The notes under the pieces are model-generated. The model was given only the letters and a program-made list of their open reading frames with translations. It ran no database searches and was not told the DNA's origin. Below, piece after piece: positions 1 through 56,057 of a DNA stretch of 64,000 bases; positions within the stretch are counted from its first letter, which is position 1; the number at the start of each line of letters is the position of its first letter. The stretch comes from Macrostomum hystrix (Eukaryota > Animalia > Platyhelminthes), in NCBI GenBank assembly GCA_950097015.1, contig CATNEN010000038.1:15438001-15502000 (forward strand). The letters are read 5' to 3'. Position numbers and translations under genes: made by a program.

Positions 1-2
1 CA

Positions 3-614
3 CACTGGAATCAAAGCCGATGTTTCTCCAAACCTCCGTTGAAGTACAAAGTAGCGGAGACCAACCGTACAGGATTTTTGGACGTAAGAACTATGGAAAT
101 TGAGACAGAGCACCCCACCTTTCAGGACTGCTCGAACCGAACTGGATACCTGTTACCCAAAGAGGACAAAGTGTACAAGGTCGACTCAAATTTCACCAGC
201 TTCGAACTTATACAGGTAAAGAAATTGAAGAACGAAGATTGGGGAATAGAGGCTATGAAATTACCTAACATCAAACGGATTATCTTTACACCAGAAACAG
301 ATATTAAAATAGAAGAAATCCGAAGGCCAATTACATTGCACGATCTGTACACGCAGATGAAGGACCAGAGAGAATTTCTGAGAACGGTATTTAAACTACC
401 AAAGCAGAAGACTTCACAGACGCTCGACCTCCCACCATTGGAAGCAAACATAGCCCTCAAAACTTATGACTTCGCATCTTGGATGCCGTGGATAGGCATA
501 AAACTCAATATTTTCAACATAGCCGTTGGAGCTGCCGCTCTCTGTGTATACTTCTACATCATACTTAAAACCATAATAGTTTGTCACAGGCTCTATCGGA
601 AAAAGTACGAGTGA
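3..614 (+). CDS. C-terminal part of a retroelement envelope glycoprotein, herpes gB-like (class III fusion) with TM anchor; 5'-truncated by the window edge
   Basis: Frame is open from base 3 (HWNQSRCFSKPPLKY...GFLD...EI...QDC...Y), resembling the gB motif CYSRPLVSF..GQLG..NEL....EPC; sequons NQS, NRT, NRT, NFT; hydrophobic helix IFNIAVGAAALCVYFYIILKTIIVC followed by a basic stop-transfer segment RLYRKK. Confidence 0.7.
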   Translation, partial: HWNQSRCFSKPPLKYKVAETNRTGFLDVRTMEIETEHPTFQDCSNRTGYLLPKEDKVYKVDSNFTSFELIQVKKLKNEDWGIEAMKLPNIKRIIFTPETDIKIEEIRRPITLHDLYTQMKDQREFLRTVFKLPKQKTSQTLDLPPLEANIALKTYDFASWMPWIGIKLNIFNIAVGAAALCVYFYIILKTIIVCHRLYRKKYE

Positions 615-1973
615 CCAGGAATTCGGGCAATTCAAAGACGGATAAAGGCGACGCGAGAACAACACGAATTGTTAGTACAGCCAAGCACGGACACTAGCTA
701 CAGACACACGGGCCCACGCCGCCCAGCACCAGAGGCACCAACCACAAATAAGGAACAGCATCACCCGATGATTCCGTCTGCTCCACTGGCTTCATCAATC
801 TATCCGACGATCAGCTCATGGCCACCGCCGATAGTGGCAGCAATTACGAACGGCCAGAAATACACGGTGACACGACTGAAGATAGGCACGCGAGTCTGCA
901 GAGCGCTGATAGACAGCGGAGCTGAGAGGTCGCTGATAGACGAAGCGACGGCGCGCCGATACAGTGACAGCTTCGAGAAGCCGACGACAGAGCTACAAGG
1001 AGTACACGGAGGAAATCTCACGCAATCCGGAATGATCACGTTACCAGTCGAAGCAGGAAACGCAATCGTCAACGTTAAGTTTCATGTCATTCCTAACTTG
1101 AGCTCTGGGAGATACCATGCACTCCTGGGAATTGATTACTTAAGTCAGTTGCAGGAGGGTATGTCTATCAATTACCAACAGCAACAGATGCAGTTAAATG
1201 GCAGATCGTATGAAATCATGACAGTCGCCGCCCAAGAAGCCCCAAATAAGATCAGACTAGTTTCCGTGGTAAACCTGAATCCATGGGAAACAGCTCAAAT
1301 TACAGCTAGAACCGACTCAAAGGAGGAATTGCCTGACACGGTACTTTTCGAGCCAGACAGGGGTATCGTCGAGAATAAGGCGATAGGTCTGACTCAGGAG
1401 ATAGTTCATCCGGACGAGAAGGGAGAGATACACGTTCTCATATCTAACGAATCAGCCAGACCGATCACTCTGTACCCGGATACAGCCATAGGTTCGTATG
1501 AGGCAGATATAAAGACATATGAAATAGCTGTGAATCAGGAACAGGCACCGGCAATGACAGAGACAGAATTCAGAGATGCGATTAATCTGCAGGGAGCCGA
1601 GATAACAGCAGAGCAGAAAGAACAACTAAGAGAAATCCTCTGGGAGAACAAGGAAGCATTTCGTCTCTCAGATGATGAGATAGGCTTTACAGAAGTAGCG
1701 AAACACGAACTCCACATAAAACCGATTGTGGAGGTGAAGCTGATTTCAAATCAAGAGTCTTTCCAAGTGCACACCGACAGGCTGAAGCCAATGGCCACGT
1801 CAACACCACATGTGATGCTTCCTGACCTCAGACCGAGCGACCCACAGCGCCACCAGCGACAGCCAAGGCAGCGATTCACCAAGGAAGTGAGTGTGCAGGC
1901 AGAGGAGCTGGACGCACAGGCCGATACAGCTCGGAAGAAATACAATCTGAGGAGTAAAGTGAAACTTCTTTGA
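615..1973 (+). CDS. Truncated pol: PSAP-containing linker, retropepsin protease, pre-RT region fused to integrase C-terminus
   Basis: Same frame as env, open from 615; RALIDSGAERSLI and ALLGIDYL protease motifs; EQKEQLREILWENKEAF...IGFTEVAKHEL is the typical start of the gypsy RT region; ends with an integrase-type tail; no YxDD, RNase H or DDE motifs. Confidence 0.8.
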   Translation, partial: PGIRAIQRRIKATREQHELLVQPSTDTSYRHTGPRRPAPEAPTTNKEQHHPMIPSAPLASSIYPTISSWPPPIVAAITNGQKYTVTRLKIGTRVCRALIDSGAERSLIDEATARRYSDSFEKPTTELQGVHGGNLTQSGMITLPVEAGNAIVNVKFHVIPNLSSGRYHALLGIDYLSQLQEGMSINYQQQQMQLNGRSYEIMTVAAQEAPNKIRLVSVVNLNPWETAQITARTDSKEELPDTVLFEPDRGIVENKAIGLTQEIVHPDEKGEIHVLISNESARPITLYPDTAIGSYEADIKTYEIAVNQEQAPAMTETEFRDAINLQGAEITAEQKEQLREILWENKEAFRLSDDEIGFTEVAKHELHIKPIVEVKLISNQESFQVHTDRLKPMATSTPHVMLPDLRPSDPQRHQRQPRQRFTKEVSVQAEELDAQADTARKKYNLRSKVKLL

Positions 1974-2147
1974 CAACTGATGTCAAGGTAGCGAGGAAGC
2001 AGACGGACAATTTTACCTTTTAAACCAATATTTATTACTCTGTTGGTGTGCGCTCTGATATTTAGAATTATATATTTTATATTACTCTGCATCACTAGTC
2101 ACTATTTATTCACTCACAAATATTCAACCCACCCTTCGGATAATCAG

Positions 2148-2912
2148 ATGTATTCGACGGAGCTAGACACAGTGGATGATTGCACCATCGATGAGCCGCT
2201 TACGACCTACACATTGGTCAAGCCATTGTTTGCATCGGCAGAACCAAGCACAGCAGTCGGGAAGGAGATGAACTTTAGGAACAGCGCCGCCACTGAACAG
2301 CAACGGCGACATCTCCAAACCCAATGGGAGATCAGAAGATCTAGACACGGACGATCGCCGTGCCCAACAGTAATGAGAGAGAGCTACAGACGGGAAGAAA
2401 AAGATCTGTCCTTCATGATGCTACACAACCTTATGGACAGACAGTCCATCCAGAGCAAGCCTAATCGGCATGGTGAGATGAAACTATTTGACATTCACCT
2501 GGACATGCTGGATGCGCCACGAATCCCAGCCAATGTAGTGACGCACCTAACAACAGCGCGCATCCTGGCCGACGAAAATAACCCACTCTGGCTCCGCTCG
2601 GACTATAACATCCTCCGTAACCGAACAACAATTTTCTTTCACTACGGGGAACAAGACGCTTTTACCTGTGTCATAGTCAAGGTTCTCTGCCATAATCTAG
2701 CTGTCAATCTGATCCATCCGTGGGGCCCACGACCCAATGCGATATGCACCACGTTATCCAAGCATCTGTGTAAAGCGTTGGATTATCATGGAATTCGTAT
2801 CAGCAACCAGGAAGCGGAGAAGCGAGTAATCCACACTTACTCACCGGCGCTGCTCCAGTGGCCGCAACTAAAAATGGCACTGGAAGCCTCGCAAGCCACC
2901 GCTTCTCAGTAA
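2148..2912 (+). CDS. Retroelement accessory ORF A (254 aa, unknown function)
   Basis: Long ORF with coding-like composition between pol and the PPT; ATG directly after taatcag; a further open stretch in another frame (~2962-3201) may be a frameshifted continuation. Confidence 0.5.
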   Translation: MYSTELDTVDDCTIDEPLTTYTLVKPLFASAEPSTAVGKEMNFRNSAATEQQRRHLQTQWEIRRSRHGRSPCPTVMRESYRREEKDLSFMMLHNLMDRQSIQSKPNRHGEMKLFDIHLDMLDAPRIPANVVTHLTTARILADENNPLWLRSDYNILRNRTTIFFHYGEQDAFTCVIVKVLCHNLAVNLIHPWGPRPNAICTTLSKHLCKALDYHGIRISNQEAEKRVIHTYSPALLQWPQLKMALEASQATASQ

Positions 2913-3677
2913 GAGCTTAGGGACCGGAAGCGTTAGGGGCATAAGGAGACACGAGAGCTGAGACACTGACGCAACGATAGGACAGAAAAGACGATTCGAT
3001 TGGACGTCCTATCCACGTGGCACTCTCACTCAATGTGCAATCCTTAAGGCAGTACCCAGTTCTCTAAAAGAAATTCGGGAGGTGATTCACATCTCGAATA
3101 ATCGGACCAGTGAACTAGGGGAAGCCAGGCCCGTCACTCAAATTGAATTTAAGTTTAGAATAGCAAAGAATACAAAGACAAGGCTTCACCGAATTCCATG
3201 ATGAGGCACACCTTATTTATTATATGCAAAACCATTATTAATTCCGACACGTTTATTCACTCCGACACGTACTAGCACTAGCAAATCACAACTTACAAAA
3301 AAAAAACACGACTGATACGAAAGAGACACAACATGATCAAAACACACAAGGGACACAACACAATAGCAATACACCACAAGGTTGCACCCAACGCGATAAA
3401 ATAATCTAAAACATATCATCACCCTGAGATTCCCTGAACTATTATTAATCAACTGGGATCTCAAGGAACGTATATTCGCTATCAATACATCGCATTTTGG
3501 TTCCGGTTTTTGGAAAATCTCATAACTTATCTCTGTTTAACTTCATTTCAATTGAACTTAAAACATCAATTACAATAGATAGGTAGTAGCAACAAGTATG
3601 CCACAGAGAACGTAGGATTAAAAGACAAAAATATAACATTCAAACCGGAATCCGAAACATTATCCAAATTTCTAGCA

Positions 3678-4001
3678 ATGAACACAGTCAACATCCCACT
3701 CATCGGGACCATGCGAACTCAACAGTCCGTCATCCACCAGACGGAGATGAACAATCGCAGGTGGGTCCGGCTGGTGGGAATATTAACGGAGCTGGAGAGG
3801 TTCGTGGAGGAAAGTTGGCCCGACGACACACCATCGGCCACAAGGCGTCGGGGCTATTGGATGAAATGCGTCATCCGTAGCGCCGCTCGCCAAGCCAAGG
3901 CTTGGGCGTCGGGGCGACTGGCCTGGTGGCGCAACCGACTCCAATATCAAGTTGAAGCCTGGCGCAGCATACAGGACGCTTTAATAATGAAAAAAAACTA
4001 A
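3678..4001 (+). CDS. Retroelement accessory ORF B (107 aa, Trp/Arg-rich, probably helical)
   Basis: GC-richer ORF bounded by AT-rich spacers; ATG preceded by tttctag|ca. Confidence 0.45.
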   Translation: MNTVNIPLIGTMRTQQSVIHQTEMNNRRWVRLVGILTELERFVEESWPDDTPSATRRRGYWMKCVIRSAARQAKAWASGRLAWWRNRLQYQVEAWRSIQDALIMKKN

Positions 4002-4207
4002 CTGGCCATATTTATTAATTACTCTAATATATCATATCCAGTAGGGATTAAATAAAGGGATCAATCTCAGATTTCACCGTTTTATATATTCACAGACTCA
4101 CTAACAGTAGACAGTTCAGCAATTCGAGGAAGACCTGGAGAATAACCTAAGGAATAAAAGAAAAACGCCTAGGAAAGCCACCTATATTGGACAACCTTTC
4201 CAGCGCG

Positions 4208-4549
4208 ATGGCCAACCGAGACTACGACCGCCGCCCCGGCCAGAAGTTTGTTGACGTGGACATCCGGGGGCGGCCGGTCCTGAAGGCCGACGCGAGCACT
4301 CAGGTGGCCGAGGAGGAGATTGATGGCGGCCTGACGGTCGCCACGTCGACAACCGACCTGAGAGAATGCTACCTAGAGGATTTTTACCCCACAAGACAAG
4401 TGCAAGGCACGTGGCCACCAGAGACCACGTATCGGCCCGAGCCCACCACCAGGCAGTGGCCCACCATTGATTGTTTCCGGCGTCATTTCCGGGACAAATA
4501 CCAAGTGCCACTACTGGATGGTTACTACACGCACTTCTATAATTTATAA
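4208..4549 (+). CDS. Retroelement accessory ORF C (113 aa)
   Basis: GC-rich ORF bounded by AT-rich spacers; ATG preceded by ctttccag|cgcg. Confidence 0.45.
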   Translation: MANRDYDRRPGQKFVDVDIRGRPVLKADASTQVAEEEIDGGLTVATSTTDLRECYLEDFYPTRQVQGTWPPETTYRPEPTTRQWPTIDCFRRHFRDKYQVPLLDGYYTHFYNL

Positions 4550-4720
4550 GTAAAACTATATTTATCTACGGTGCAGGTCAAATACATTTATTGATTTCGT
4601 TTTCATCAAGTATCAGATTTCAAACGTCTTATATGTTCACAGATCTACTAGTAGTAAGCCGATTAGCAGCTCGATTAAGACGATAGGCTACATCTCCCTT
4701 GACCAGTCAAGGATTTCTTC

Positions 4721-4730
4721 AAAAGGGGGA
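4721..4730 (+). other. Polypurine tract (plus-strand primer)
   Basis: aaaaggggga immediately 5' of the LTR start TG. Confidence 0.8.
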
Positions 4731-5662
4731 TGATATAAGACTTAGAAATCTGAATGGAATTTAAGTGGGCGTTAGTAGGAAGCAAAAGCCAAAAATAGCA
4801 ACAGCAGAAAGTACGAGCAACCGAAAGGAGAATGATTAGACAAAATCCGCCCCCAGAGATCAACTATTCATTTCAGCGCAGGCCCGGTTCGGCATGACAG
4901 CAGCTGTGCCGACGTGGAGCTGGCTGAGACCGGATCCGCAGAGGCGCTGACGTGGAGCTGCCGGAGACCGGATCCGCAGCTGTGCTGACGTGGAATGGCC
5001 CGAGACCGGAACGCAGCTGTGCTGACGTGGAGCTCCCGGAATCAACCCGGCCTACCCCGACCTGCAGCTGCCTGCATCGACCCAACCCAGCAGAAACTGG
5101 AGCCGCCCGGACCCGATCGGGAACGAGATCGAGAGGAGGCCGAGTCCGCACAAGAAGGCGGGATCGATGAAAGAAAAGGGGTTGGCGTGCCTGCCAACCA
5201 ACTAGTTTAATGACAATAACTGTACTAGACTCGAGGCTGCGACCTCACTCACCCCAAATTCCCATGCGTACTGTCGCTATGGTATTATCTCCCCCTCGGA
5301 TCGAGGGGTTTTAAAGACACTATATATATCGGTGCGGAGCGCGGAAAAAGATCCGCCGCGCGAGTTAGTTAGAGACTCGCTTTGAGCTCCGTTTAGATAA
5401 ACTTACTAGAAAATCATTGTGTTTGCGTTCTTTCTTAAGTAGAATCCATGACAACGGTCTAGAGAGATCACTACGACCAGCCGAAATACTGAGCATCGAT
5501 AGTCGTTAGGAGTTATAGCCTTCAAGACTTTTAGACTGCAATAAACCGCTAGACAAACTATAGGAAAATACAAGTGAAGAAGAAGAAACATTAAAACTTG
5601 AAGCGCTATAGACTTATTGAAATCATTGAAGACTGAAGATCGGACAGGTCAGTCACTTAACA
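4731..5662 (+). repeat. 3' LTR (~930 bp)
   Basis: Starts TGATATAAG after the PPT; TATA-like tatatatat 5321-5329; AATAAA 5540-5545; ends ...cacttaaCA, after which a SINE fragment follows; U3 has about four tandem units containing TGACGT/CGACGT (4900-5035). The 3' boundary is less certain than the 5' boundary. Confidence 0.7.
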
Positions 5663-5821
5663 GCCGCACTTTTTGCACTGCTTTTTCAAAGGCTGTATAA
5701 AACTGTTCAGTCCGTGGACTGGGGGCCGCCACGCCCACTCAGATAGGCCTAGCAACATAGCAACTAAAGCAACGTAGTTTATTGTCTATCTAAAGTATAC
5801 TTTCTAAAGTTTCTTTCTAAA

Positions 5822-5972
5822 GAGAGGATTGTAGCCTAGTGTTTAGAGCGTCGGACTCATGACTTGAAGGTCGTGGGTTCGATTCCGGCTCCACTGTAAC
5901 AATTCATGTCCTTTAGCAAGACACTTAACTATGCATTGCTTCAGTTCACTCTGCTGTTAGATGGGTACCAGC
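5822..5972 (+). mobile_element. tRNA-derived SINE family A (5' part)
   Basis: A box (tagcctagtgt) and B box (ggttcgattcc) head followed by gcaagacacttaac...cagttcac..gctgt..atgggtacc; same family at 25.4 kb, 26.4 kb and 6.5 kb. Confidence 0.8.
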
Positions 5973-6043
5973 ATCAGCTTTTGTGATCAGCAAAGTAATA
6001 ATGCCTAGTAAAAGCACAAATAGCTCGTAATATCGCAGCCCAC

Positions 6044-7064
6044 CTGTGCTCCTCGTGCGTGTGTTTGCATCGACACTTGGCGCGCCACGTGGCCGGATCG
6101 AAATCGCGCCGACGCTTCAACCAGAACTCGCCAGCCTCCTCCGGCCTGGTGGGCACCCATTCGAATCCTGAGCACTTGCAGTGCTGACAGGGCAGCTGCA
6201 GAGCACGGCCGCCTGGCTGTTTGTGCTCGGCCAGACTGTGACCGCAGAAGCAGCGAGAGCCAGAGTGTACTCGCTGACAGTCCTGCTTGTCGTAGGGCGG
6301 CTCGCGCGGTCTCCAGGCAAAGTACCAGCCGGTCGCCTGCGGCACAGATGCGGTTCAATGACGATTCGTTGACAACATAAAAAACTTTAAATTTTTCCCA
6401 AATCTTTTATAAGATTTACACTCCAATTTTAACAACAAACTGACGACCGTCAAAGAAGATGTTGTCCGGGCACGAGTAGTTGAATTTAATAAATAAATAA
6501 TCATATTAATAATTGAAGTAAATGTATAATTAAGTGTCTGTCTAAAGGAAGCAAATTTTTTCAGTGGAGTCAAGAATCGAACCCCGACCATCAAGTCGTA
6601 AGTCCGGCGCTCTAACCACAAGGCTAAAACCCTTGCCTTTAAATTACTCTATCATTAAAAAATTAAACTGACGCCAAATTCCCGAATTTATGACCAAGTA
6701 GGTGCAATAGTTTGAATCCAAGATCCTAAACCTAAATCACCTTGGCCTCTTCGACAGCCCGCATCTCCGGCTCGAACAGCTGCTTCACCCGCGGTGCCAG
6801 ATCCGCTCCGTTCATCGCCTTGGCAACCGCCAGCACATTGTACTGCTCGGCGCGTTGAATTTTGTTAATTCTCAGCTCCCCGCCAGGCAGTTGATAGCGA
6901 CCTGGCAGCAGGTTGCCCTGGGCGTCCGTTGGCAGGCCGCGACCACGGCCCGCAGCTGCTGGCGGCTGGCTTCCGGTGCCTCGCCTAGCAACCGTTTTTG
7001 TTGTTGTCTTTGACGACGACGATGTCGGCGTCTTGCCAGGCTGATTCTGTCTGTTGTTACTCAT
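6044..7064 (-). CDS. FAM221B: FAM221B-like protein, exons 1-2 (7064-6741, 6336-6044); the remaining exons must lie beyond the window start
   Basis: RCFCGHSLAEH...PC..CKC..FEWVPTRPEEAGEFWLKRRRDFDPATWRAKCRCKHTHEEH matches the FAM221B family; phase-compatible GT-AG junctions. Confidence 0.8.
6500..6630 (-). mobile_element. SINE family A fragment (degenerate) in FAM221B intron 1
   Basis: Reverse complement of the tRNA-like head (tggttagagcg...ggttcgattc...ccactgaaa). Confidence 0.6.
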
Positions 7065-8789
7065 GTCCGCTGTAATGTTTTGTTAGGATGATACGAAAGA
7101 CTGTTATAGAAAGAAGGTGAACCAGCTAAATTTTAATCGATAGTTTTGCAAGTTTTTAGCATTTGCATTTTTTGCACGTGATGCAAACAGAACTATGTTT
7201 TTTAAAGAGTTATTTTTTATATCCTTTTTGTAGCACACTTTTCAGCCAAGAAATTTGTGCAAAAAGTATTATGTTAAAGTAAGAATTTTAAAGTAAGAAG
7301 GACTACGTAATGACTTTAGTTTATAAATAAAACAATTATATACAATATTATTGTCAGCAAGTCTTTTTAAAGTATTTTCAAATGTCAGCATGTAAATTAG
7401 GAAATATTTGTTTGGGTATGTTTTGTTAGATAACTTATAACCAAATATTTTAAAAATGAAAAAAAAACGCAAAGCAGACTGTGTTGCAAAAATATTATAA
7501 TAATTCCCACTGAACTTATCCCTTTACATATTTTCTTGTTAGAGATTATTCTACTTTTACTTTAAAAAGTACTTGCGTAGTTAATTTAGCTTTTATATTT
7601 AGTAAACTTACGAAATAATATGTTGCATGTGTTTTCCTGACTTAATAGTTTAAGATATGTCCTAATTAAACGTAAAGGTAAAGTGAAGTTTTTATTTTTT
7701 ATTTTAATGGTAAAATATATCTAGCTATAACCTAAAGGCTATAAAATAACATTGATATCCATGTAAATAAAGTGTGAAATTTCTAGCCGCATGTATTTGA
7801 AAATAAGTCGGAATCAATAAACTTCAGTTACATTTTGTTACCGTCCTAAAATACTAAGACGATGCAAAGACAGTGAAACAATTGTCGTGCTGTCTATGAA
7901 AAATCGATATCTCAGTAACAAGTTAAAAGTGTGCCAAAAAACGCTCACTAATGAGTCTTAGTTCTGAGTTAACATAGAAACTGAAAAAAAATTATATACG
8001 ATACTATTCTTTATCGAAAGAAATTTAAAGCACTATTAAATAAGCGCAATAGCAACAATTTGTTTTACTTACTCGCTTAGTTACTAGTTTCCAAAGGAAC
8101 GCCGAACCAATTTTTTTCTCAAGCTAAATATACTTCAAATTTTCTCTAAAAATAGACTGAATTCCCTGAACGCAGTAAACAACTCTCCACCCTTATTTCT
8201 AAAAACACTTAAGTTCGACATTTTTACTGCACGCTATTGTGCTGCCCTTTCGAGAACTTATAAACATCACTATCTTCTAATTAACTAAAATCCTAAAAAT
8301 TGTGGCTCGACTTGAATTCACAGCAGTATTTTGCGTTGTGAACAGCTTCCAGGCAGGCACTAAGGCTTCCTGCGGGGATTTTCGTTTCGGAATATCCCTC
8401 TTAACTTCTGCATATATTAGAGCCTAATTAGCACTCTAGAACAGCAAGACAAAATCTATGAAAACGATAGAATAATGTAATTTTTGTATCGTATTATTCT
8501 CAGAAGTGACGGATTATAAAGTTCAGGATTTTGATTCATAATTGCATCGTAAGGCTTCGGGTCTAGAAGAATTTTGTGTTCTTTAACTTTGTGACACTTA
8601 AATCTGCATTGCTTCAGTTCACCCAGCGGACGACAATCGGATAGTTGGATTTTGTCAAGCATGGCGGTAGGGAAGACTAGGACATATGCGAAACAATAAT
8701 TTTGAGCGATCGAGAAGACATTACTAAAATATATAGTTTCAAAACGCTCGAATTGAATGGTATGAAGCAAATAGGACTCAAGCGATACT

Positions 8790-28477: not shown

Positions 28478-31321
28478 GATGGCTGCAAGAAAATTCAGAC
28501 TAATTCGTTTTCAGATTCACCACAGTAATACTATAAAAATGATTATACAATGGATTGTGCAAAAAGCTAAGCATTTTTTTTCAATTGTCAGCTCACGGTT
28601 AATGTTTTTTTTAACAGTAGGACTACCAAGCCATTTCGCTGGAAGCACTTGTTTTTATACTAAGGGTGGATTTCTCCCAAGGCAGCGCCCGAATGCTAAC
28701 AGCGTTGGTTGGTGTCTGATTGGTTGACAGACTAGGCGAGGGTGTCCTGTGGTTGAGCTGCGCCTAATATTTAGGCTTGATCAGTGAAATTGGAGAAATT
28801 CGCGTCAGGGTGTCCATAGTGGCCTAGTTCCATCTGTTGTAGCCCTTGAAGGTCCAGCAGTCCGTCTAGATAAAGGTAGGTGACCACTGAAGACGGGGAT
28901 GAAGCAGGTACTTTCGGGTGACATAAATCTTGAAGGCCTGGCAAGGCTGCACTGAGGCGTAGAGCAAATTCGTGTAAAGGGGTGTATGAAGTAGCGCTTT
29001 AGGGAAAAATCTGACCTTCGGTCAGAACCATTGAATATTTCGACTGTCTGAAGAGCTCGCGACCCGATTCTTGTTTCAGAAGATGCGCAACAAAAGTTGG
29101 CCTGTGTTCTTGACTTTCGTGTGCTTGCATTACCCCCATTTGCGTGCAGCAAAAAAATTGTCAGGTGGAATTCCCCCCATGGTAGAACTCTTAATATACC
29201 ATCTGCATCAACTACACACTATTTTATGTCATACTATGTTATGGTAAAAATTGCAATGGTATACCATGACATATAGATAGGCCTAGCTACTAGAAAATTT
29301 TATAATAGACCTGATGGTCTGGTATACTGATACCTAAGGCCCAAAAGTTTCTACATGGTATCTCGTAGTATGCTACATAGTATGCTAATTTCTTGTAGTG
29401 TGGACCCAGGCCTATACTTTGGTAATCACTAGGTCCTAGAATACCATGCTGACATAACAATGTGAATGAAAGCTAATAAAGTCCTAAGATCTTAGTTTTA
29501 ACCATAGGACGATTGATGTCAAAATTAGAATAATAAAAAATGATTTCAAATTTGACTTTAATTCACCACTGCAATTAATTTCTAAAAACAGGAACAAAGG
29601 TAATGGTCTGCAAAGTCAAAGACACAACTCACATTTTGTTCAATTTAGAAATAAAGTTTGATGTGTCATTTTATGGCTTAGAGCTCATACATGGCTTATA
29701 ATTTTTTGTGCTTATTTCAGAGAATAGCCAAGCAATGACACATCTAACATAATAATCTAAACTTAATTTAAAACAACCCAAGAAGACAGTTTTTTAAATC
29801 AGGAATCACAGCAAGTTGAATGACACTTAAAATGAAAGTACTTAACTTGCTAATCCCTGTAGCAATATGTAATAACAGAACTAGCTATCAACATAGCATG
29901 GGGCAATCAAAGCAATATTTTGTACCCAAATTAACCATGAAAGTTCTTGTAAGTCTGTTTGTTATACCTGCTTGTTAATAACTTTAAATCCAATTTGTCA
30001 ACTGCTTTTAAAATCACAATTAGCCCATATTTTGTTCTTTTATCTTGTAGCCTGTAGGTAAAAATATATTTTTACTTTTAATTACAAAAACTAGTCATTA
30101 AGCCAAATGTTTATAAAAAACACTGTTGCTAAATTTCAGTTTATAAAATAAAAACAAGTGGTCCTATTGTAGCTAAAAATATAATAATTAGAAGCTGAGT
30201 AAGTTAAAACTTAACTTTATCAGAATCTCTATTAAGATTATTTATTTTCATAGTGAATAACTAGGTCTCTAAAAAAAAGCAGGCTAAACATAAGCATATG
30301 TATTAGGGCCTAAAGCAATTTGGTGCCAACTGACAAGCAATGACCCAGACCCAGTAAGATTTAATATCATATGGAATCAAAAATGACATAAAAATAAAGT
30401 ACAAATATAGCAGCATATATAGCAACAAGCTTTGAGATTCAGCACTACTGTACAATAGAATGCTAGGCTTTAAGTATGCAAGGCATACATTTAAGTAGTT
30501 AAGCGATTATATAAGCATTAAGCCCTACACATATAGGCCTAGCTAGATTGCATTTGAGGACCTTTTGAGGTTTTAAAGAACTAGCAGGCTGCATAGGAAC
30601 ATTTGCAAAATACAATCTAATTTAAAACAAACTTAGGCCTAGGCCTACTTTTATTGTTTCTAGACACTTTGTTTCTATATGATAACAAAACCCTGATGAC
30701 AAACCAAACATTATTAAAAAAAGTAAGTAATTTTATAAACTTGTTATGCCTACATCTTAATTTTCTCCCGAACGGCTCAACCGATTTTCACCATTTCTTC
30801 ACCAAAAGATGTCAAATATGGGGACACATATACACGTATTTTTATTAAGCTTAACTTTATTGCTAAGGGGATTAAATATTCGAAAAACATGCTTTTTGAC
30901 CATATTCAAAGGTCAAACTATCTTGGCCTATTAAGAATTTCACTCACTGCCACTGAATTGAAATTGCATCGTCAAATTGCGCAACAACCCCTAGCTGATT
31001 GAATTTAAAGCCTGCACTCTGGAGACAAATTGGAAATAATTGTACACAACCAACCAAGAGACTGAGTGTACTCTATTTTCTTACTTCATTGTACAAAGCC
31101 AGAACTTTGAGAATTCATTTTATAAGGCTGATTTTTGCACCCACTAACCAACAGTCGGAATAGCCTATGTGTAGTCATCTAGGAATAGTTTAGGCTAGGC
31201 TAGGGTTCGATTCTGCACTGCGTCAAATCATTTAGACTAATTTTCAGCCAGTAGTGATGGATGCGAAGCGATAAATTTTTTTGATTTTGAAAAAAGGGGA
31301 AACTTTTAATTCACTTTTGCA

Positions 31322-32675
31322 ACCAGAGCTTGAATCATGGCTAAACTAGAGTTTGAATCATGGCTAAACTAGAGCTTGAATCATGGCTAAACTAGAGTCT
31401 GAATCATAGCTAAACCAGAGTCTGAATCATGGCTAAACCAGAGTTTGAATCATGGCAAAATTCGAGTTTGAATCATAGCCAACCAGAGTTTGAATCATGG
31501 CAAAACCAGAGTTTGAATCATGGCTAAACCAGCGTTTGAATCATAGCTAAACGAGAGTTTGAATCATGGCTAAACCAGAGTTTGAATCATGGCTAACCCA
31601 GCGTTCGAATCATGGCTAAAACAGAGCTTGAATCATGGTTTACCCATCGTTTGAATTATGGCTAAACCAGAGTTTGAATCATGGCTAAACCAGAGTTTGA
31701 ACCATGGCTTACCCATCGTTTGAATCATGGCTAAACCAGAGTTTGAATCATGGCTATACCAGAGTTTGAATCATGGCTAAACCAGAGTTTGAATCATGGC
31801 AAAACTCGAGTTTGAATCATAGCCAACCAGAGCTTCAATCATGGCAAAACCAGAGTTTGAATCATGGCTAAACCAAAGTTTGAATCATGGCTAAACCAGA
31901 ATTTTTATCATGGCTAAACCAGAGTTTGAATCATGGCTAAACAAAAGTTTGAATCATGGCTAAACCAGAGTCTGAATCATGGCTAAACCAGAGTTTGAAT
32001 CATGGCTAAACCAGAGTTTGAATCATGGCAAAATTCGAGTTTGAATCATAGCCAACCAGAGTTTGAATCATGGCAAAACCAGAGTTTGAATCATGGCTAA
32101 ACCAGCGTTTGAATCATAGCTAAACGAGAGTTTGAATCATGGCTAAACCAGAGTTTGAATCATGGCTAACCCAGCGTTCGAATCATGGCTAAAACAGAGC
32201 TTGAATCATGGTTTACCCATTGTTTGAATTATGGCTAAACCAGAGTTTGAATCATGGCTAAACCAGAGTTTGAATCATGGCTAAACCAGCGTTTGAATCA
32301 TGGCTAACCCAGCATTTGAATCATGGCTAAACCAGCGTTTGAATCACAACTGAACCAGAATTTTTATCATGGCTAAACCAGAGTTTGAATCATGGCTAAA
32401 CTAGAGTTTGAATCATGGCTAAACTTGAGTTTGAATCATGGCTAACCCAGCGTTTGAATCATGGCTAAAACAGAGCTTGAATCATGGCTTACCCATCGTT
32501 TGAATCATGGCTAAACCAGAGCTTGAATCATAGCAAACCAGAGTTCAAGCTAAACCAGAGCTTGAATCATGGCTAAACCAGAGCTTGAATCATGGCTAAA
32601 CAAGAGTTAGAATCGTGGCTAAACCAGCGTTTGAATCATGGCTAACCCAGCGTTTGAATCATGGCTAAACCAGAA
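31322..32675. repeat. 23-bp satellite (tgaatcatggctaaaccagagtt) inside the Helitron
   Basis: Direct inspection. Confidence 0.95.
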
Positions 32676-33220
32676 CTAGGGGATAATCGTCAACTGAGGG
32701 ATCATGGTAAACTGGGGGATAATTGTCAACTGGGGTATCATTGTCAACTGGAGGATCATTGTCAACTGGGGGATAATTGTCAACTGGGGAATCATCATCA
32801 AATGGGGGATCAATGTCAACTGGGGATCATTGTCAAATGGGGATCATCATCAACTGGGGGATCATTGTCAACTGGGTGATCATCATCAACTGGGGGATCA
32901 TTGTCAACTAGGGGGTAATGGTCAACTGGGGGAACATTGTCAACTGGGGATCATCATCAATGGGGGATCATAGGGCCTAGTCAACTGGGAGATAATTGTC
33001 AACTGGGTGATCAATGTCAACTGGGGATCATCATCAATGGGGGATCATAGGGCCTAGTCAACTGGGAGATAATTGTCAACTGGGTGATCATTGTCAACTG
33101 GGGGTTCATTGTCAACTGGGGAATTATTGTCAACTGGGGGATCATTGTCAACTGGGGGATCATTGTCAACTGGGGGGAAATTGTCGACTGGGGGATCATT
33201 GTCAACTGGAGGATCATTGT
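32676..33220. repeat. 18-bp satellite (ggggatcattgtcaactg) inside the Helitron
   Basis: Direct inspection; same unit in reverse at 61.4-64 kb. Confidence 0.95.
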
Positions 33221-44009: not shown

Positions 44010-47000
44010 ATACTCAGGCCTGGCTGCCCCACCACCTCAGATCCTCAGGCTTGGCTGCCACACCACCTTAGATCCTCAGGCTTGGCTGCCACACCACCTC
44101 AGATCCTCGGCTGCCCCACTACCTCAGATCCTCAGGCTTGGCTCCCACACCACCTCAGATCCTCAGGCTTTGCTGCCCCACCCACCACCTCAGATCCTCA
44201 GGCTTGGCTGCCACACCACCTCAGATCCTCAGGCTTTGCTGCCCCACCACCTCAGATCCTCAGGCTTGGCTGCCACACCACCTCAGATCCTCAGGCTTTG
44301 CTGCCCCACCCACCACCTCAGATCCTCAGGCTTGGCTGCCCCACCACCTCAGATCCTCAGGCTTGGCTGCCCCACCCACGACCTCAGATCCTCAGGCTTT
44401 GCTGCCCCACCCACCACCTCAGATCCTCAGGCTTTGCTGCCCCACCACCTTAGATCCTCAGGCTTGGCTGCCACACCACCTCAGATCCTCAGGCTTGGCT
44501 GCCCCACCACCTCAGATCCTCAGGCTTGGCTGCCACACCACCTCAGATCCTCAGGCTTTGCTGCCCCACCCACCACCTCAGATCCTCAGGCTTTGCTGCC
44601 ACACCACCTCAGATCCTCAGGCTTGGCTGCCACACCACCTCAGATCCTCAGGCTTTGCTGCCCCACCCACCACCTCAGATCCTCAGGCTTTGCTGCCCCA
44701 CCCACCACCTCAGATCCTCAGGCTTGGCTGCCACACCACCTCAGATCCTCAGGCTTGGCTGCCCCACCCACCACCTCAGATCCTCAGGCTTGGCTGCCAC
44801 ACCACCTCAGATCCTCAGGCTTGGCTCCCACACCACCTCAGATCCTCAGGCTTGGCTGCCACACCACCTCAGATCCTCAGGCTTGGCTGCCACACCACCT
44901 CAGATCCTCAGGCTTGGCTGCCCCACTACCTCAGATCCTCGGCTGCCCCACTACCTCAGATCCTCAGGCTTGGCTGCAACACCACCTTAGATCCTCAGGC
45001 TTGGCTGCCACACCACCTCAGATCCTCGGCTGCCCCACTACCTCAGATCCTCAGGCTTGGCTCCCACACCACCTCAGATCCTCAGGCTTTGCTGCCCCAC
45101 CCACCACCTCAGATCCTCAGGCTTTGCTGCCCCACCACCTCAGATCCTCAGGCTTGGCTGCCACACCACCTCAGATCCTCAGGCTTTGCTGCCCCACCCA
45201 CCACCTCAGATCCTCAGGATTGGCTGCCCCACCACCTCAGATCCTCAGGCTTTGCTGCCACACCACCTCAGATCCTCAGGCTTTGCTGCCCCACCCACCA
45301 CCTCAGATCCTCAGGCTTGGCTGCCCCACCACCTCAGATCCTCAGGCTTGGCTGCCCCACCCACGACCTCAGATCCTCAGGCTTTGCTGCCCCACCCACC
45401 ACCTCAGATCCTCAGGCTTGGCTGCCACACCACCTCAGATCCTCAGGCTTGGCTGCCCCACCACCTCAGATCCTCAGGCTTGGCTGCCACACCACCTCAG
45501 ATCCTCAGGCTTTGCTGCCCCACCCACCACCTCAGATCCTCAGGCTTTGCTGCCACACCACCTCAGATCCTCAGGCTTGGCTGCCACACCACCTCAGATC
45601 CTCAGGCTTTGCTGCCCCACCCACCACCTCAGATCCTCAGGCTTTGCTGCCCCACCCACCACCTCAGATCCTCAGGCTTGGCTGCCACACCACCTCAGAT
45701 CCTCAGGCTTGGCTGCCCCACCCACCACCTCAGATCCTCAGGCTTGGCTGCCACACCACCTCAGATCCTCAGGCTTGGCTCCCACACCACCTCAGATCCT
45801 CAGGCTTGGCTGCCACACCACCTCAGATCCTCAGGCTTGGCTGCCACACCACCTCAGATCCTCAGGCTTGGCTGCCCCACTACCTCAGATCCTCGGCTGC
45901 CCCACTACCTCAGATCCTCAGGCTTGGCTGCCACACCACCTTAGATCCTCAGGCTTGGCTGCCACACCACCTCAGATCCTCGGCTGCCCCACTACCTCAG
46001 ATCCTCAGGCTTGGCTCCCACACCACCTCAGATCCTCAGGTTTTGCTGCCCCACCCACCACCTCAGATCCTCAGGCTTGGCTGCCACACCACCTCAGATC
46101 CTCAGGCTTTGCTGCCCCACCACCTCAGATCCTCAGGCTTGGCTGCCACACCACCTCAGATCCTCAGGCTTTGCTGCCCCACCCACCACCTCAGATCCTC
46201 AGGCTTGGCTGCCCCACCACCTCAGATCCTCAGGCTTGGCTGCCCCACCCACGACCTCAGATCCTCAGGCTTTGCTGCCCCACCCACCACCTCAGATCCT
46301 CAGGCTTGGCTGCCACACCACCTCAGATCCTCAGGCTTGGCTGCCCCACCACCTCAGATCCTCAGGCTTGGCTGCCACACCACCTCAGATCCTCAGGCTT
46401 TGCTGCCCCACCCACCACCTCAGATCCTCAGGCTTTGCTGCCCCACCACCTCAGATCCTCAGGCTTGGCTGCCACACCACCTCAGATCCTCAGGCTTTGC
46501 TGCCCCACCCACCACCTCAGATCCTCAGGCTTTGCTGCCCCACCCACCACCTCAGATCCTCAGGCTTGGCTGCCACACCACCTCAGATCCTCAGGCTTTG
46601 CTGCCCCACCCACCACCTCAGATCCTCAGGCTTTGCTGCCACACCACCTCAGATCCTCAGGCTTGGCTGCCCCACTACATCAGATCCTCGGCTGCCCCAC
46701 TACCTCAGATCCTCAGGCTTGGCTGCCACACCACCTCAGATCCTCAGGCTTTGCTGCCCCACCCACCACCTCAGATCCTCAGGCTTGGCTGCCACACCAC
46801 CTCAGATCCTCAGGCTTTGCTGCCCCACCACCTCAGATCCTCAGGCTTGGCTGCCACACCACCTCAGATCCTCAGGCTTTGCTGCCCCACCACCTCAGAT
46901 CCTCAGGCTTGGCTCCCACACCACCTCAGATCCTCAGGCTTGGCTGCCACACCACCTCAGATCCTCAGGCTTTGCTGCCCAACCCACCACCTCAGATCCT

Positions 47001-47427
47001 CAGGCTTTGCTGCCCTACCCACCACCTCAGATCCTCAGGCTTGGCTGCCACACCACCTCAGATCCTCAGGCTTGGCTGCCCCACCCACCACCTCAGATCC
47101 TCAGGCTTGGCTCCCACACCACCTCAGATCCTCAGGCTTGGCTGCCACACCACCTCAGATCCTCAGGCTTTGCTGCCCCACCCACCACCTCAGATCCTCA
47201 GGCTTTGCTGCCCCACCACCTCAGATCCTCAGGCTTGGCTGCCACACCACCTCAGATCCTCAGGCTTGGCTCCCACACCACCTCAGATCCTCAGGCTTGG
47301 CTCCCACACCACCTCAGATCCTCAGGCTTGGCTCCCACACCACCTCAGATCCTCAGGCTTGGCTGCCACACCACCTCAGATCCTCAGGCTTTGCTGCCCC
47401 ACCACCTCAGATCCTCAGGCTTGGCTG
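44010..47427. repeat. 31-bp minisatellite (atcctcaggcttggctgccacaccacctcag) with 25- and 35-bp variants
   Basis: Direct inspection; 3.4 kb. Confidence 0.97.
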
Positions 47428-48359
47428 ATTATACTAAAAGTTAAATTTAGTATAATATCTAAAGCAGGCCTTTTCCGTTTTCATAGTTTCTTAAATTATC
47501 TAAGATCCTCGCAATAGCTTGTCTGTTGTATTTAATTTATTTGATATGAATCTGTAACAAAAAAATTTAGTTCGCATTTTTGTCGTTTGTCTCTAGAAGC
47601 TGTCGTTTTTCATTGAAGGCTTTTTTTAAGTTAAGTACGAGCAAAGTAGTAGCTGAGCTTTTTATCTGTCGATTGAGCATTAAGGAACTAAAAATGATTT
47701 GCGTTTTATGTTAAAAATTGAATTCTATTATTTACAAAATAAGCTAGGTGCCCACCGCTGTTACTTGACTCTCTAGTTCAGTACCGTAATTGACACACAT
47801 TTTGGCTTGAAATTTCAATACTTTTTCCCCCATTTTTTCGCATTATTGGCATAACCAACTAATCCAAAAACTATTTTTTGTTTTGCTAACGACAAATGTT
47901 ACAAATTTCTACAAACGTTACAATGATCAAAGCAGAAATAATGCAACTTTTTAAAACTAGCCTGTTTATTTTTTATTTGGTCTTTGCCAATGTAGATTTT
48001 AAAAAACGAAGTTTGCCGATAATCCGTGTTGTCAATGTTAACAGCCTTAGGCTCTGATCAATTCTCAGTCCTTTTGTAGGAAAATATGTTTCAATATTAC
48101 AATTTGCTGTGCTCCGAATTTAGGAATTCGTTCGTGCTGTTAACACATTTTCAAAACCGATATTTCTGATAATTAATGCACTATTTTGAATAAAGAAATG
48201 AAAAAAAGTAAAAACATGTTGCTGCTTTTATCGTTAAAGTTTTTTCTTCTTTTTTGTTTCGTTATTCGAGTAGTTGATTTAAGAGCTTATTTAGCTTACT
48301 TTCATTGTCAGTTCATAAGTACCCGAAGCAGTTAGTTTGCAATACGAGCTACCAGGCCC

Positions 48360-50355
48360 TCTACTTCATACTCTACATATCATTTCCGGTCTACTTTTAA
48401 CTCTACTCTATCATTCCCAGTCTACTTCTAACTCTACCCTATCATTCCCAGTCTACTTTTAACTCTATTCTATCATTCCCAGTCTACTTTTAACTCTACT
48501 CTATCATTCCCAGTCTACTTCTAACTCTAACCCATCATTCCCAGTCTACTTCTAACTCTACCCTATCATTCCCAGTCTACTTTTAACTCTACCCTATCAT
48601 TCCCAGTCTACTTCTAACTCTACCTATCATTCCTACTCTACTTCTAACTCTACCCTATCATTCCTTCTCTACTTAAACTCTACTCTATAATTCCCAGTCT
48701 ACTTCTAACTCTACCTATCATTCCTTCTCTACTTCTAACTCTACCTATCATTCCTACTCTACTTCTAACTCTACCTATCATTCCTACTCTACTTCTAACT
48801 CTACTCTATTATTCCCAGTCTACTTCTAACTCTACCTATCATTCCTTCTCTACTTCTAACTCTACCTATCATTCCTACTCTACTTCTAACTCTACCTATC
48901 ATTCCTTCTCTACTTATAACTCTACTCTATTATTCCCAGTCTACTTCTAACTCTACCTATCATTCCTTCTCTACTTATAACTCTACCTATCATTCCTTCT
49001 CTACTTATAACTCTACTCTATAATTCCCAGTCTACTTCTAACTCTACCTATCATTCCTTCTCTACTTCTAACTCTACCTATCATTCCTACTCTACTTCTA
49101 ACTCTACCTATCATTCCTACTCTACTTCTAACTCTACCTATCATTCCTTCTCTACTTATAACTCTACTCTATTATTCCCAGTCTACTTCTAACTCTACCT
49201 ATCATTCCTACTCTACTTCTAACTCTACTCTATTATTCCCAGTCTACTTCTAACTCTACCTATCATTCCTTCTCTACTTCTAACTCTACCTATCATTCCT
49301 ACTCTACTTCTAACTCTACCTATCATTCCTACTCTACTTCTAACTCTACTCTATTATTCCCAGTCTACTTCTAACTCTACCTATCATTCCTTCTCTACTT
49401 CTAACTCTACCTATCATTCCTACTCTACTTCTAACTCTACCTATCATTCCTTCTCTACTTATAACTCTACTCTATTATTCCCAGTCTACTTCTAACTCTA
49501 CCTATCATTCCTTCTCTACTTATAACTCTACCTATCATTCCTTCTCTACTTATAACTCTACTCTATAATTCCCAGTCTACTTCTAACTCTACCTATCATT
49601 CCTTCTCTACTTCTAACTCTACCTATCATTCCTACTCTACTTCTAACTCTACCTATCATTCCTACTCTACTTCTAACTCTACCTATCATTCCTTCTCTAC
49701 TTATAACTCTACTCTATTATTCCCAGTCTACTTCTAACTCTACCTATCATTCCTACTCTACTTCTAACTCTACTCTATTATTCCCAGTCTACTTCTAACT
49801 CTACCTATCATTCCTTCTCTACTTCTAACTCTACCTATCATTCCTACTCTACTTCTAACTCTACCTATCATTCCTACTCTACTTCTAACTCTACCTATCA
49901 TTCCTTCTCTACTTATAACTCTACTCTATTATTCCCAGTCTACTTCTAACTCTACCTATCATTCCTTCTCTACTTATAACTCTACCTATCATTCCTTCTC
50001 TACTTATAACTCTACTCTATAATTCCCAGTCTACTTCTAACTCTACCTATCATTCCTTCTCTACTTCTAACTCTACCTATCATTCCTACTCTACTTCTAA
50101 CTCTACCTATCATTCCTACTCTACTTTTAACTCTACCTATCATTCCTTCTCTACTTATAACTCTACTCTATTATTCCCAGTCTACTTCTAACTCTACCTA
50201 TCATTCCTACTCTACTTCAAACTCTACCCTCTCATTCCAAGTCTACTTTTAACTCTACCCTATCATTTCCAGTCTACTTCTAACTCTACCCTCTCATTCC
50301 AAGTCTACTTTTAACTCTACCCTATCATTTCCAGTCTACTTCTAACTCTACCCTC
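48360..50355. repeat. 30/31-bp G-poor minisatellite (ctacttctaactctacctatcattccttct)
   Basis: Direct inspection; ends just before the STX5 acceptor. Confidence 0.97.
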
Positions 50356-50522
50356 GCATACCCACTCCACTTCTCATTTCGCCCTCTCATTACCACTGTG
50401 TTTCTCAGTCTACCCTCTAATTTAGTCTTTTCTATCATTTCAGACTGACTGCAGAGACCACACGACAAATCAATATAAGCAAATCGACAATAGCTAGACT
50501 ACAGCACAGTCTAAATAAAGTC

Positions 50523-53134: not shown

Positions 53135-53387
53135 AGACTGGCCTAGCCGGTGTTTTCTTGTGTTTATCAATATTTATTTGGGTTGCTTTTGTCTGTCTCT
53201 GTCCTTTCAATTGTGTCAACTCTCTGGTGGTGCTCACTGGGTGTTTTGAGTAGCGATTCGACTGCGTACAGTGGACACTAATGCTAATAGGCTACTAAAA
53301 AACATTAAAAAATATTTTTAATATAACTTTAAATATAACCAAACATTAACTAAATACTCGTAAACCAACTTACACTCACTTTCTGCA

Positions 53388-54427
53388 AGCCCCAATGTAC
53401 ACTCACTCTGATCCAGCCCCAGTGTACACTCACTCTGAGCCAGCCCCAATGTACACTCACTCTGAGCCAGCCCCAATGTACACTCAATCTGAGCCAACCC
53501 TAATGTACACTTACTCTGAGCCAGCCCCAATGTACACTCACTCTGAGCCAACCCTAATGTACACTCAATCTGAGCCAGCCCCAATGTACACTCAATCTGA
53601 GCCAACCCTAATGTACACTCACTCTGAGCCAACCCTAATGTACACTCACTCTGAGCCAGCCCCAATGTACACTCAATCTGAGCCAACCCTAATGTACACT
53701 TACTCTGAGCCAGCCCCAATGTACACTCACTCTGAGCCAACCCTAATGTACACTCAATCTGAGCCAGCCCCAATGTACACTCAATCTGAGCCAACCCTAA
53801 TGTACACTCACTCTGAGCCAACCCTAATGTACACTCACTCTGAGCCAGCCCCAATGTACACTCAATCTGAGCCAACCCTAATGTACACTTACTCTGAGCC
53901 AGCCCCAATGTACACTCACTCTGAGCCAGCCCCAATGTACACTCACTCTGAGCCAGCCCCAATGTACACTCAATCTGAGCCAACCCTAATGTACACTTAC
54001 TCTGAGCCAGCCCCAATGTACACTCAATCTGAGCCAACCCTAATGTACACTCACTCTGAGCCAGCCCCAATGTACACTCAATATGAGCCAACCCTAATGT
54101 ACACTCAATCTGAGCCAACCCTAATGTACACTTACTCTGAGCCAGCCCCAATGTACACTCACTCTGAGCCAACCCTAATGTACACTCAATCTGAGCCAAC
54201 CCTAATGTACACTCACTCTGAGCCAGCCCCAATGTACACTCACTCTGATCCAGTCCCAATGTACACTCAATCTGAGCCAACCCTAATGTACACTCAATCT
54301 GAGCCAACCCTAATGTACACTCAATCTGAGCCAACCCCAATGTACACTCAATCTGAGCCAACCCCAATGTACACTCAATCTGAGCCAACCCCAATGTACA
54401 CTCAATCTGAGCCAACCCTTATGTACT
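53388..54427. repeat. 27-bp minisatellite (aatgtacactcactctgagccagcccc)
   Basis: Direct inspection. Confidence 0.95.
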
Positions 54428-55199
54428 GGCATCTGTGCCAGACCAATAAAGACATTGAAAAAAAATTATGCAATAATACTAACAGTAGTATTGCCAAGCT
54501 TTTTCTGTGTTTCTCGATAATTTTTTGCTTTTTGCTTTTGCTTTGTCTTGCTTTTCTTCAGTAGAAAAAACTGTCTGCTTAGTCAATAATATTTTTTGTT
54601 AACTAACCAATGAGTGCCTGGTGACGGAATTTTACGCAGAAACCATTAGTTTAAGGTATTCAAGCCCTCATTTTGGGTTCTTACAAAATCAGTTCTGCAT
54701 CCCTGGGTTTATGTAATTATTATGTTTATGTATCGAGTTATGAAAATATGACGATTTTACTCTAACCATCTTATTGTGGCTATTTTTCAATTGCTTTCAT
54801 ATTTTGTTTCGTTATTAAAAATGTTTTTCAAGTGTCTATCGCCGAACTAAAAACTAATACTCTATTGGCGAGGTTTGTACAGAAAAGTTTAACTTCTAAA
54901 AAATGAAACAATCTGCAAGTTTGGCACTGTTTGTTAATTTGTCATGATAGTTTTTAGATTTGCTTTTTTACGTAACTTATGCAATGGTAGTTGATGCTTA
55001 CTTGTGCCGTTTTAATGAAGCTAATATTTTCGCACATCACCTGTGGTACAAAGAATTTCATAGCAGTATGACTAGCAAAATTTTTGTGTTATTTGCTTAC
55101 ATGTGCTTATGATACTTATACAGAGAGACACTAGATTTTATTTCAATTTCGGCGTCACGCTTTGTCCTTTCATTGTTTTACGTGTCACTCAACACCATC

Positions 55200-55952: not shown

Positions 55953-56057
55953 CATTAAAGCTACAGTGTATTCTTTCTGTTATTTATAGACACAAGATAA
56001 TAACGGCCGTATTAACTACTATTAATTGCATTAATTGCAGCTCCCACTAGCAGCGCA

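What the first reader, a model, noticed from the sequence alone, without database searches (positions are those of the whole stretch)
3..1973. Gypsy-type element with a gB-like envelope upstream of, and in frame with, protease/pol, separated by one TGA
Seen: the env ORF (glycosylated ectodomain, TM helix, basic tail) stops at TGA 612-614. The same frame continues without any further stop (PGIRAIQRR...MIPSAPLASSIYPTI...) directly into the retropepsin and the rest of pol. Known: env normally lies 3' of pol; PSAP and YPx(L/I) are ESCRT-recruiting late-domain motifs; UGA followed by C is a leaky stop context. Inference: the element makes an Env-Pol fusion, either by programmed readthrough (UGA CCA) or as one polyprotein with the TGA a later nonsense change such as TGG>TGA. 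Either way Pol would be tethered to the cytosolic tail of a membrane fusion glycoprotein, so it could be packaged via Env rather than Gag. I cannot confirm whether this architecture has been described before.
Basis: partly seen in the sequence, partly recalled or inferred. Interest (0 to 1): 0.85.

Follow-up and report, generated by a model that had tools for sequence, protein, structure and literature searches.

The report
Broken copy of envelope-before-polymerase retroelement
This is a damaged copy of a virus-like jumping gene whose relatives read a membrane-anchored, likely herpes-gB-type envelope protein and the enzymes in one unbroken frame, a layout already in print; the stop codon between them is absent from every relative examined and so is likely damage to this copy, not a read-through signal.

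Summary
The anatomy is real: glycosylated ectodomain end, one TM helix, TGA 612-614, then in frame a linker with PSAP and YPTI and a retropepsin. The readthrough idea fails. In 7 of 7 sequencing runs laid (7 study codes), 9 of 9 contigs covering the site have a sense codon, and no RNA structure follows the stop. 'The rest of pol' is also wrong: RT, RNase H and integrase are deleted at 1744-1746. Of 3 distant relatives (32-38% identical), two run from envelope into protease without a stop; one is a 2852-aa Macrostomum lignano Gag-Env-Pol polyprotein. gB identity has only weak, concordant support. In-frame env between gag and pol is published (PMC6431247, 2019), as is the GAG-ENV-POL order (PMC13524379), and this scan noted it before on other DNA. 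What stays interesting: P(S/T)AP lies behind the envelope anchor in 4 of 4 sequences and YPx(L/I/V) in 3 of 4, so these elements likely recruit ESCRT from the Env-Pol linker. Verdict: defective copy, new family of a known kind.

The parts
3..509 (+). C-terminal part of the envelope ectodomain (open at the window edge); two cysteines (residues 7 and 43), four sequons; likely gB domain IV and following region
   Evidence: homologues P0002-P0004; both cysteines invariant in alignment A1 and aligned to a herpesvirus gB at E=0.42
510..590 (+). Predicted transmembrane anchor (about residues 170-196)
   Evidence: hydropathy; only confident helix of the model; same place in relatives
612..614 (+). TGA seen only in this copy (premature stop)
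   Evidence: sense codon in 9 of 9 covering contigs, 7 of 7 runs
615..866 (+). Pro-rich cytosolic Env-protease linker
   Evidence: no indel listed in 4 runs over 420-1900 (table 4)
774..785 (+). PSAP, late-domain-like motif (TSG101 type; label recalled)
   Evidence: P(S/T)AP in the linker of 4 of 4 sequences
801..812 (+). YPTI, late-domain-like motif (ALIX type; label recalled), followed by a Trp
   Evidence: YPx(L/I/V) in 3 of 4 sequences
867..1157 (+). Retropepsin, catalytic DSG at 912-920
   Evidence: Pfam PF00077 E=3.2e-7, above cut-off
1158..1743 (+). Region between protease and RT, and the first residues of RT
   Evidence: collinear with P0004 up to its residue 1912, where similarity to Ty3 RT begins at 1906; no Pfam hit
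1744..1746 (+). In-frame deletion junction; at least 2249 bases of RT/RNase H/integrase missing
   Evidence: loose ends behind 1743 in 5 runs and before 1747 in 5 runs; X17 record 10
1747..1973 (+). C-terminal tail of pol (likely integrase end) and stop
   Evidence: similarity to the P0004 tail not significant
1992..2912 (+). Accessory ORF 1 (first Met 2148, 254 aa), unknown
   Evidence: no useful Pfam hit; fold failed
3579..4001 (+). Accessory ORF 2 (first Met 3678), unknown
4151..4549 (+). Accessory ORF 3 (first Met 4208), unknown
4721..4730 (+). Polypurine tract
4731..5625 (+). 3' LTR (starts TG; TATA-like 5321, AATAAA 5540; right end not fixed, about 5610-5625)
   Evidence: contig depth in X1 rises about tenfold from the 4676 bin on (not a copy number)

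Best explanation
This is a defective copy of a Ty3/gypsy-type element whose relatives read the envelope end, its membrane anchor, a Pro-rich linker and the protease in one open frame, likely as part of a single Gag-Env-Pol polyprotein with a gB-type envelope; the TGA and the deletion of RT/RNase H/integrase are likely later damage to this copy. Shown: the family frame is open across the site; this copy lacks most of pol; a relative has Gag, Env, PR, RT, RNase H and integrase in one 2852-aa chain. Inferred (from topology and from how alphavirus and flavivirus polyproteins behave, recalled): an internal signal after Gag threads the ectodomain into the ER, signal peptidase frees Gag, the anchor stops transfer, and linker plus Pol return to the cytosol; the protease then cuts Pol from the envelope tail; P(S/T)AP and YPx(L/I/V) in the linker recruit TSG101 and ALIX for budding. 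Gag, Env and Pol would be made 1:1:1 with no recoding step. This copy could make at most an anchored envelope with a short basic tail and cannot move by itself.
For: Sense codon in 9 of 9 covering contigs, 7 of 7 runs, two organism codes, including a contig about 88% identical (X1 record 1, 73 differences in 625). Three single contigs span the stop site and the catalytic DSG with 0 gaps (X4 record 20; X3 record 25 and X13 record 10). 0 of 45 classified differences create a stop; 23 of 36 polymorphic ones are synonymous against 22% expected, while 7 of 9 differences private to this copy are non-synonymous. P0002 (38% identical) runs envelope-anchor-linker-DTG without a stop; P0004 (M. lignano, 2852 aa, CCHC knuckle, PR, RT, RNase H, integrase) aligns collinearly over residues 2-574, E=8e-46. 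gB pointers: P0003 hits PF00606 at E=9.3e-4, a P0004 stretch at E=0.061, the only PDB hit of the profile is a herpesvirus gB (E=0.42), the top Foldseek hit is a Chuviridae glycoprotein (E=0.61). Layout in print.
Against: Contigs drop rare variants, so other copies with the same stop are not excluded; X1 may be the window's own sample. 765 and 147 differences were not listed, so a second stop in the bridging contigs is not formally excluded. No gB hit reaches a curated cut-off (43 bits), P0003 also hits Baculo_F at E=2.8e-4 over the anchor region, and the window's own envelope has no Pfam hit. Gag and the signal segment of this family lie outside the window and were not seen; in P0004 no signal-like segment passed my hydropathy threshold. 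P0003 ends before any protease motif. Processing and budding steps are untested.
Confidence: 0.88

Rival explanations
1. Programmed UGA readthrough makes a minority Env-Pol fusion and a majority Env-only product.
For: UGA followed by C, a leaky context (recalled; PMC3159437 search listing); the stop sits where a down-regulating signal for Pol would make sense.
Against: Stop absent in 9 of 9 contigs of 7 runs and in P0002 and P0004; no downstream structure, z=+0.64, 142 of 200 shuffles fold as well; this copy has no RT or integrase to read through to.
Confidence: 0.03
2. The upstream membrane protein is not a gB-type fusogen but another glycoprotein carried in the polyprotein.
For: All gB hits are below significance or cut-off; model confidence low; only about 170 ectodomain residues are in the window.
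Against: Four weak pointers agree on the gB/chuvirus class, with two cysteines aligned; published flatworm GAG-ENV-POL elements carry only gB-type Env.
Confidence: 0.08
3. The stop (not the deletion) is a sequencing or assembly error in the window rather than a mutation in the genome.
For: No listed contig carries the stop, not even in the best-matching run.
Against: The copy has other private differences with a neutral pattern and a large deletion; collapsed repeat contigs would hide a single-copy variant. The family reading is the same either way.
Confidence: 0.07
4. The host keeps this copy as an Env-only gene: the stop just behind the anchor and the loss of pol leave a surface glycoprotein that could block related elements.
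For: The stop leaves anchor and basic tail whole; 3-611 has no stop or shift.
Against: No sign of selection on this copy (7 of 9 private differences non-synonymous, mostly outside env); 5' part unseen; no expression data.
Confidence: 0.04

Closest known systems
GAG-ENV-POL, HSV/gB-type Ty3/gypsy errantiviruses of Platyhelminthes, Bryozoa and Nematoda (Chary and Hayashi, eLife 2026, PMC13524379), including Mlig_errantivirus_2
   Same: Env upstream of pol, likely gB-type, LTR element; nearest named protein relative is from Macrostomum lignano, a genome for which the paper lists ENV-POL hits.
   Different: This copy is broken. Only 25-32% identical to the M. lignano polyprotein P0004; 2757 bases with three ORFs lie between pol and the LTR. 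The paper's main text has no occurrence of 'polyprotein', 'same reading frame', 'late domain' or 'ESCRT'. Whether P0004 is Mlig_errantivirus_2 was not tested.
Burro/GYPSM1 giant gypsy elements of planarians (Arkhipova and Yushenova 2019, PMC6431247, section 7 read whole; authors recalled)
   Same: Env in frame between gag and protease in one polyprotein, hits to mononegavirus fusion glycoproteins, accessory ORFs.
   Different: Burro ORF1 is about 4900-5100 aa with many extra domains and the element exceeds 30 kb; nothing of that size or content is seen here.
Nematode endogenous retroviruses of Sacco et al. 2022 (J Gen Virol, doi 10.1099/jgv.0.001739)
   Same: Flipped env-pol order (as cited in PMC13524379); a continuous gag-env-pro-pol ORF is my recall of the abstract.
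   Different: Paper not held, so no feature was compared; nematode hosts.
Stop-codon readthrough in alphaviruses and gammaretroviruses (recalled)
   Same: In-frame stop before a polymerase, UGA-C context.
   Different: There the stop is conserved and followed by a stimulatory structure; here neither holds.

Membership tests
GAG-ENV-POL gB-type Ty3/gypsy errantivirus | Env lies upstream of pol | tested here: met
   anchor at 510-590 precedes retropepsin at 867-1157; bridged by single contigs
GAG-ENV-POL gB-type Ty3/gypsy errantivirus | Pol of Ty3/gypsy type, order PR-RT-RNase H-integrase | tested here: inconclusive
   deleted in this copy; met in relative P0004 (Pfam order; best PDB hit Ty3 Gag-Pol E=1.9e-91), which is collinear with the window up to the RT start
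GAG-ENV-POL gB-type Ty3/gypsy errantivirus | gB-type (class III) ectodomain | tested here: inconclusive
   four concordant but sub-threshold hits; none on the window's sequence alone by Pfam
GAG-ENV-POL gB-type Ty3/gypsy errantivirus | Gag upstream of Env | not testable with these tools
   outside the window, no genome held; P0004 has a CCHC knuckle at 396 upstream of Env
GAG-ENV-POL gB-type Ty3/gypsy errantivirus | LTRs with polypurine tract and primer-binding site | tested here: inconclusive
   3' LTR start and polypurine tract found; 5' LTR and primer site outside the window
Catalogue of intact errantiviruses (PMC13524379 inclusion rule) | Full-length RT and integrase in continuous ORFs | tested here: not met
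   premature stop and pol deletion; this copy would not enter the catalogue, which does not bear on its family
Programmed stop-codon readthrough element | Stop conserved among functional copies | tested here: not met
   0 of 9 covering contigs in 7 runs carry it
Programmed stop-codon readthrough element | Stimulatory RNA structure 3' of the stop | tested here: not met
   612-720 folds no better than shuffles, z=+0.64; longer-range structure not tested
Programmed stop-codon readthrough element | Leaky context (UGA followed by C) | tested here: met
   TGA-CCA

The most novel reading that the evidence does not exclude
These envelope-first retroelements bud from the envelope side: ESCRT late domains sit in the cytosolic Env-Pol linker of a membrane-threaded polyprotein and are kept across families only 32-38% alike, so Env with Pol still attached, not Gag alone, would drive release and bring the enzymes into the particle at one Pol per Env with no recoding.
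Probability: 0.45. Interest if true: 0.65.

Novelty: new member of a known kind. Interest (0 to 1): 0.3.

Why it matters
The headline claim (Env-Pol readthrough) does not hold, and the gene order is published, so the locus itself is an ordinary dead copy. It does add a distant family with a long, variable 3' accessory region, and comparative evidence that late-domain-like motifs are kept behind the envelope anchor. If those motifs work, they answer how GAG-ENV-POL elements leave the cell and package Pol, which PMC13524379 leaves open, and they can be tested with short natural peptides.

Tried and rejected
No genome held. No second copy in the window. Three word-index protein searches found nothing; four locus scans of viral and metagenome contigs found nothing. 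The ESM Atlas gave no answer. PDB searches with the window's own proteins gave nothing significant. No RNA holder was listed on record, so expression is open. The match of the pol tail to the P0004 tail is not significant (189 of 2000 shuffles as good); the deletion rests on the contigs and Pfam. A dUTPase-like domain between PR and RT was suspected from recall and from PMC6431247 but Pfam gave no hit. Accessory ORFs match none of the stored relatives. Rfam found nothing credible in 1-8000; ARAGORN no tRNA; no heat-shock element pattern in the LTR. Scan look-ups by sequence and place found no look-alike. Tor elements of Oikopleura (PMC4402516, passages) have the normal order and were set aside. 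PMC12801592 (part 1 of 6) gave nothing on env.

Full report
Observation. Frame +3 is open from the window edge to TGA 612-614 and again from 615 to the stop at 1971-1973. Before the TGA lie four sequons, two ectodomain cysteines, one hydrophobic segment (about 510-590) and a basic tail; after it a Pro-rich linker with PSAP (774-785) and YPTI (801-812) and a retropepsin (Pfam RVP E=3.2e-7; DSG at 912-920). But 615-1970 is only 452 aa and has no RT, RNase H or integrase domain.

Is the stop a signal? No genome is held, so I used sequencing runs: 24 were listed and 7 were laid, from 7 study codes and two organism codes (X1 twice). At 612-614 every covering contig has a sense codon: 9 of 9 contigs in 7 of 7 runs, with the whole depth at the site on the other letter, including a contig about 88% identical to the window. 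No indel was listed over 420-1900 in 4 of 4 runs at a 30% share. Three single contigs span both the stop site and the catalytic DSG with no gap (X4 record 20; X3 record 25; X13 record 10). Of the listed differences in 3-1973 I classified 45, leaving out the stop site and four adjacent rows at 671-674: none creates a stop; 23 of 36 polymorphic ones are synonymous against 22% expected, whereas 7 of 9 shown by all runs against the window are non-synonymous (labels set by hand, best-supported rows only, 765 and 147 rows unlisted). The family frame is thus under purifying selection while this copy looks as if it drifts. The 109 bases from the stop fold no better than shuffles (z=+0.64). Limits: contigs drop rare variants, and X1 may be the window's own sample.

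The deletion. Contigs leave the window's sequence behind 1743 in 5 runs (X17, X1, X14, X13, X3) and join it before 1747 in 5 runs (X2, X17, X1, X14, X13); X17 record 10 carries 2249 further bases beyond 1743. No listed piece bridges the junction. The copy is an in-frame fusion of the RT start to the pol tail and cannot be autonomous.

Relatives. A search of 1.84 billion representatives with 3-611 gave 3 hits. P0002 (38%, 313 aa) runs envelope-anchor-linker-DTG without a stop. P0004 (32%) is a 2852-aa Macrostomum lignano protein (PAA86625.1; cluster of 5, three full-length sequences) with a CCHC knuckle, the envelope, one anchor, then PR, RT, RNase H and integrase; it aligns collinearly with the window's X-read protein over residues 2-574 (25% identity, E=8e-46) and its best PDB hit is Ty3 Gag-Pol. 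P0003 (32%) ends before any protease motif. The host of the window is not determined; a FAM221 exon nearby and the M. lignano relative fit an animal, possibly a flatworm (inference).

Envelope type. The window's fragment alone has no Pfam hit and folds poorly. Through relatives four weak pointers agree: PF00606 at E=9.3e-4 in P0003 over a stretch that overlaps the window's first 65 residues, PF00606 at E=0.061 in the matching P0004 stretch, a herpesvirus gB as the only PDB hit of the three-sequence profile with both cysteines aligned (E=0.42), and a Chuviridae glycoprotein as top Foldseek hit of the poor model (E=0.61). None reaches a cut-off, and P0003 also hits Baculo_F over the anchor region. 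gB type is likely, not shown.

Late-domain-like motifs. The linker is poorly conserved, yet P(S/T)AP occurs behind the anchor in 4 of 4 sequences (shuffle chance 0.5-2% each) and YPx(L/I/V) followed by Trp shortly before the protease in 3 of 4 (2.5-11% each); P0002 also has PPxY. The sequences are related, so these are not independent draws, and P0004 has a second PSAP on the Gag side. That the motifs bind TSG101 and ALIX is recalled from retroviruses and untested here.

Mechanism. Most likely the family makes one membrane-threaded Gag-Env-Pol chain: internal signal, luminal ectodomain, stop-transfer anchor, cytosolic linker and Pol, released by signal peptidase and the element's protease, with ESCRT recruited from the linker. 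The open frame and domain order are shown; Gag in this family, topology, cleavage and budding are inferred.

3' region. Between the pol stop and the LTR lie 2757 bases with three unannotated ORFs; a polypurine tract (4721-4730) precedes an LTR starting at 4731. One contig replaces 3143-4622 by 1104 other bases (X17 record 13), so the accessory region differs between subfamilies.

What is known. PMC6431247 (section 7 read whole) reports env in frame between gag and pol in planarian Burro elements. PMC13524379 (abstract, first parts of sections 5 and 6, sections 14 and 22, passages, searched supplement rows; preprint passages) reports GAG-ENV-POL, gB-type elements in Nematoda, Bryozoa and Platyhelminthes, one from M. 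lignano. Sacco et al. 2022 was not held; its continuous ORF is recalled. I did not find late domains in these elements in print: no occurrence of 'late domain' or 'ESCRT' in the main text of PMC13524379, and a six-term search listed 3 retrovirus reviews only (listing seen); searches bear on the layout. Subscription papers, figures and the paper's sequence repository were not visible. This scan noted the same layout, and the budding motifs, on other genomes; those notes are unchecked and had no sequence look-alike to this window.

Verdict. Real element, wrong mechanism in its most striking form, known layout: a defective copy from a new family of GAG-ENV-POL gypsy elements. Interest 0.3, carried mainly by the conserved linker motifs.

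Noticed in passing
window 1992-4549: Three ORFs without known domains between pol and the LTR, separated by AT-rich spacers; part of the region is replaced by unrelated sequence in another subfamily (X17 record 13).
   Followed up: partly
window 4900-5040: Imperfect direct repeats inside the LTR whose number differs between copies (37-91 base skips, table 5).
   Followed up: no
window 5977-6354 (-): FAM221A/B exon (Pfam E=4.2e-8) about 350 bases beyond the LTR; the element sits in or next to this host gene.
   Followed up: partly
window about 5820-5900 (+) and 6560-6630 (-): Two short tRNA-like, SINE-like stretches seen by eye; ARAGORN calls no tRNA and Rfam gives only chance-level hits.
   Followed up: partly
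window 31321-33220 and 44013-64000: Many long minisatellite arrays (periods 17-31, up to 3.4 kb) with strong strand skew; they explain the long repetitive ORFs there.
   Followed up: no
P0004 residues about 1000-1190: The M. lignano relative has a long Thr/Ser/Pro-rich, mucin-like insert in its envelope ectodomain just before an RIRR furin-type site at 1192.
   Followed up: no
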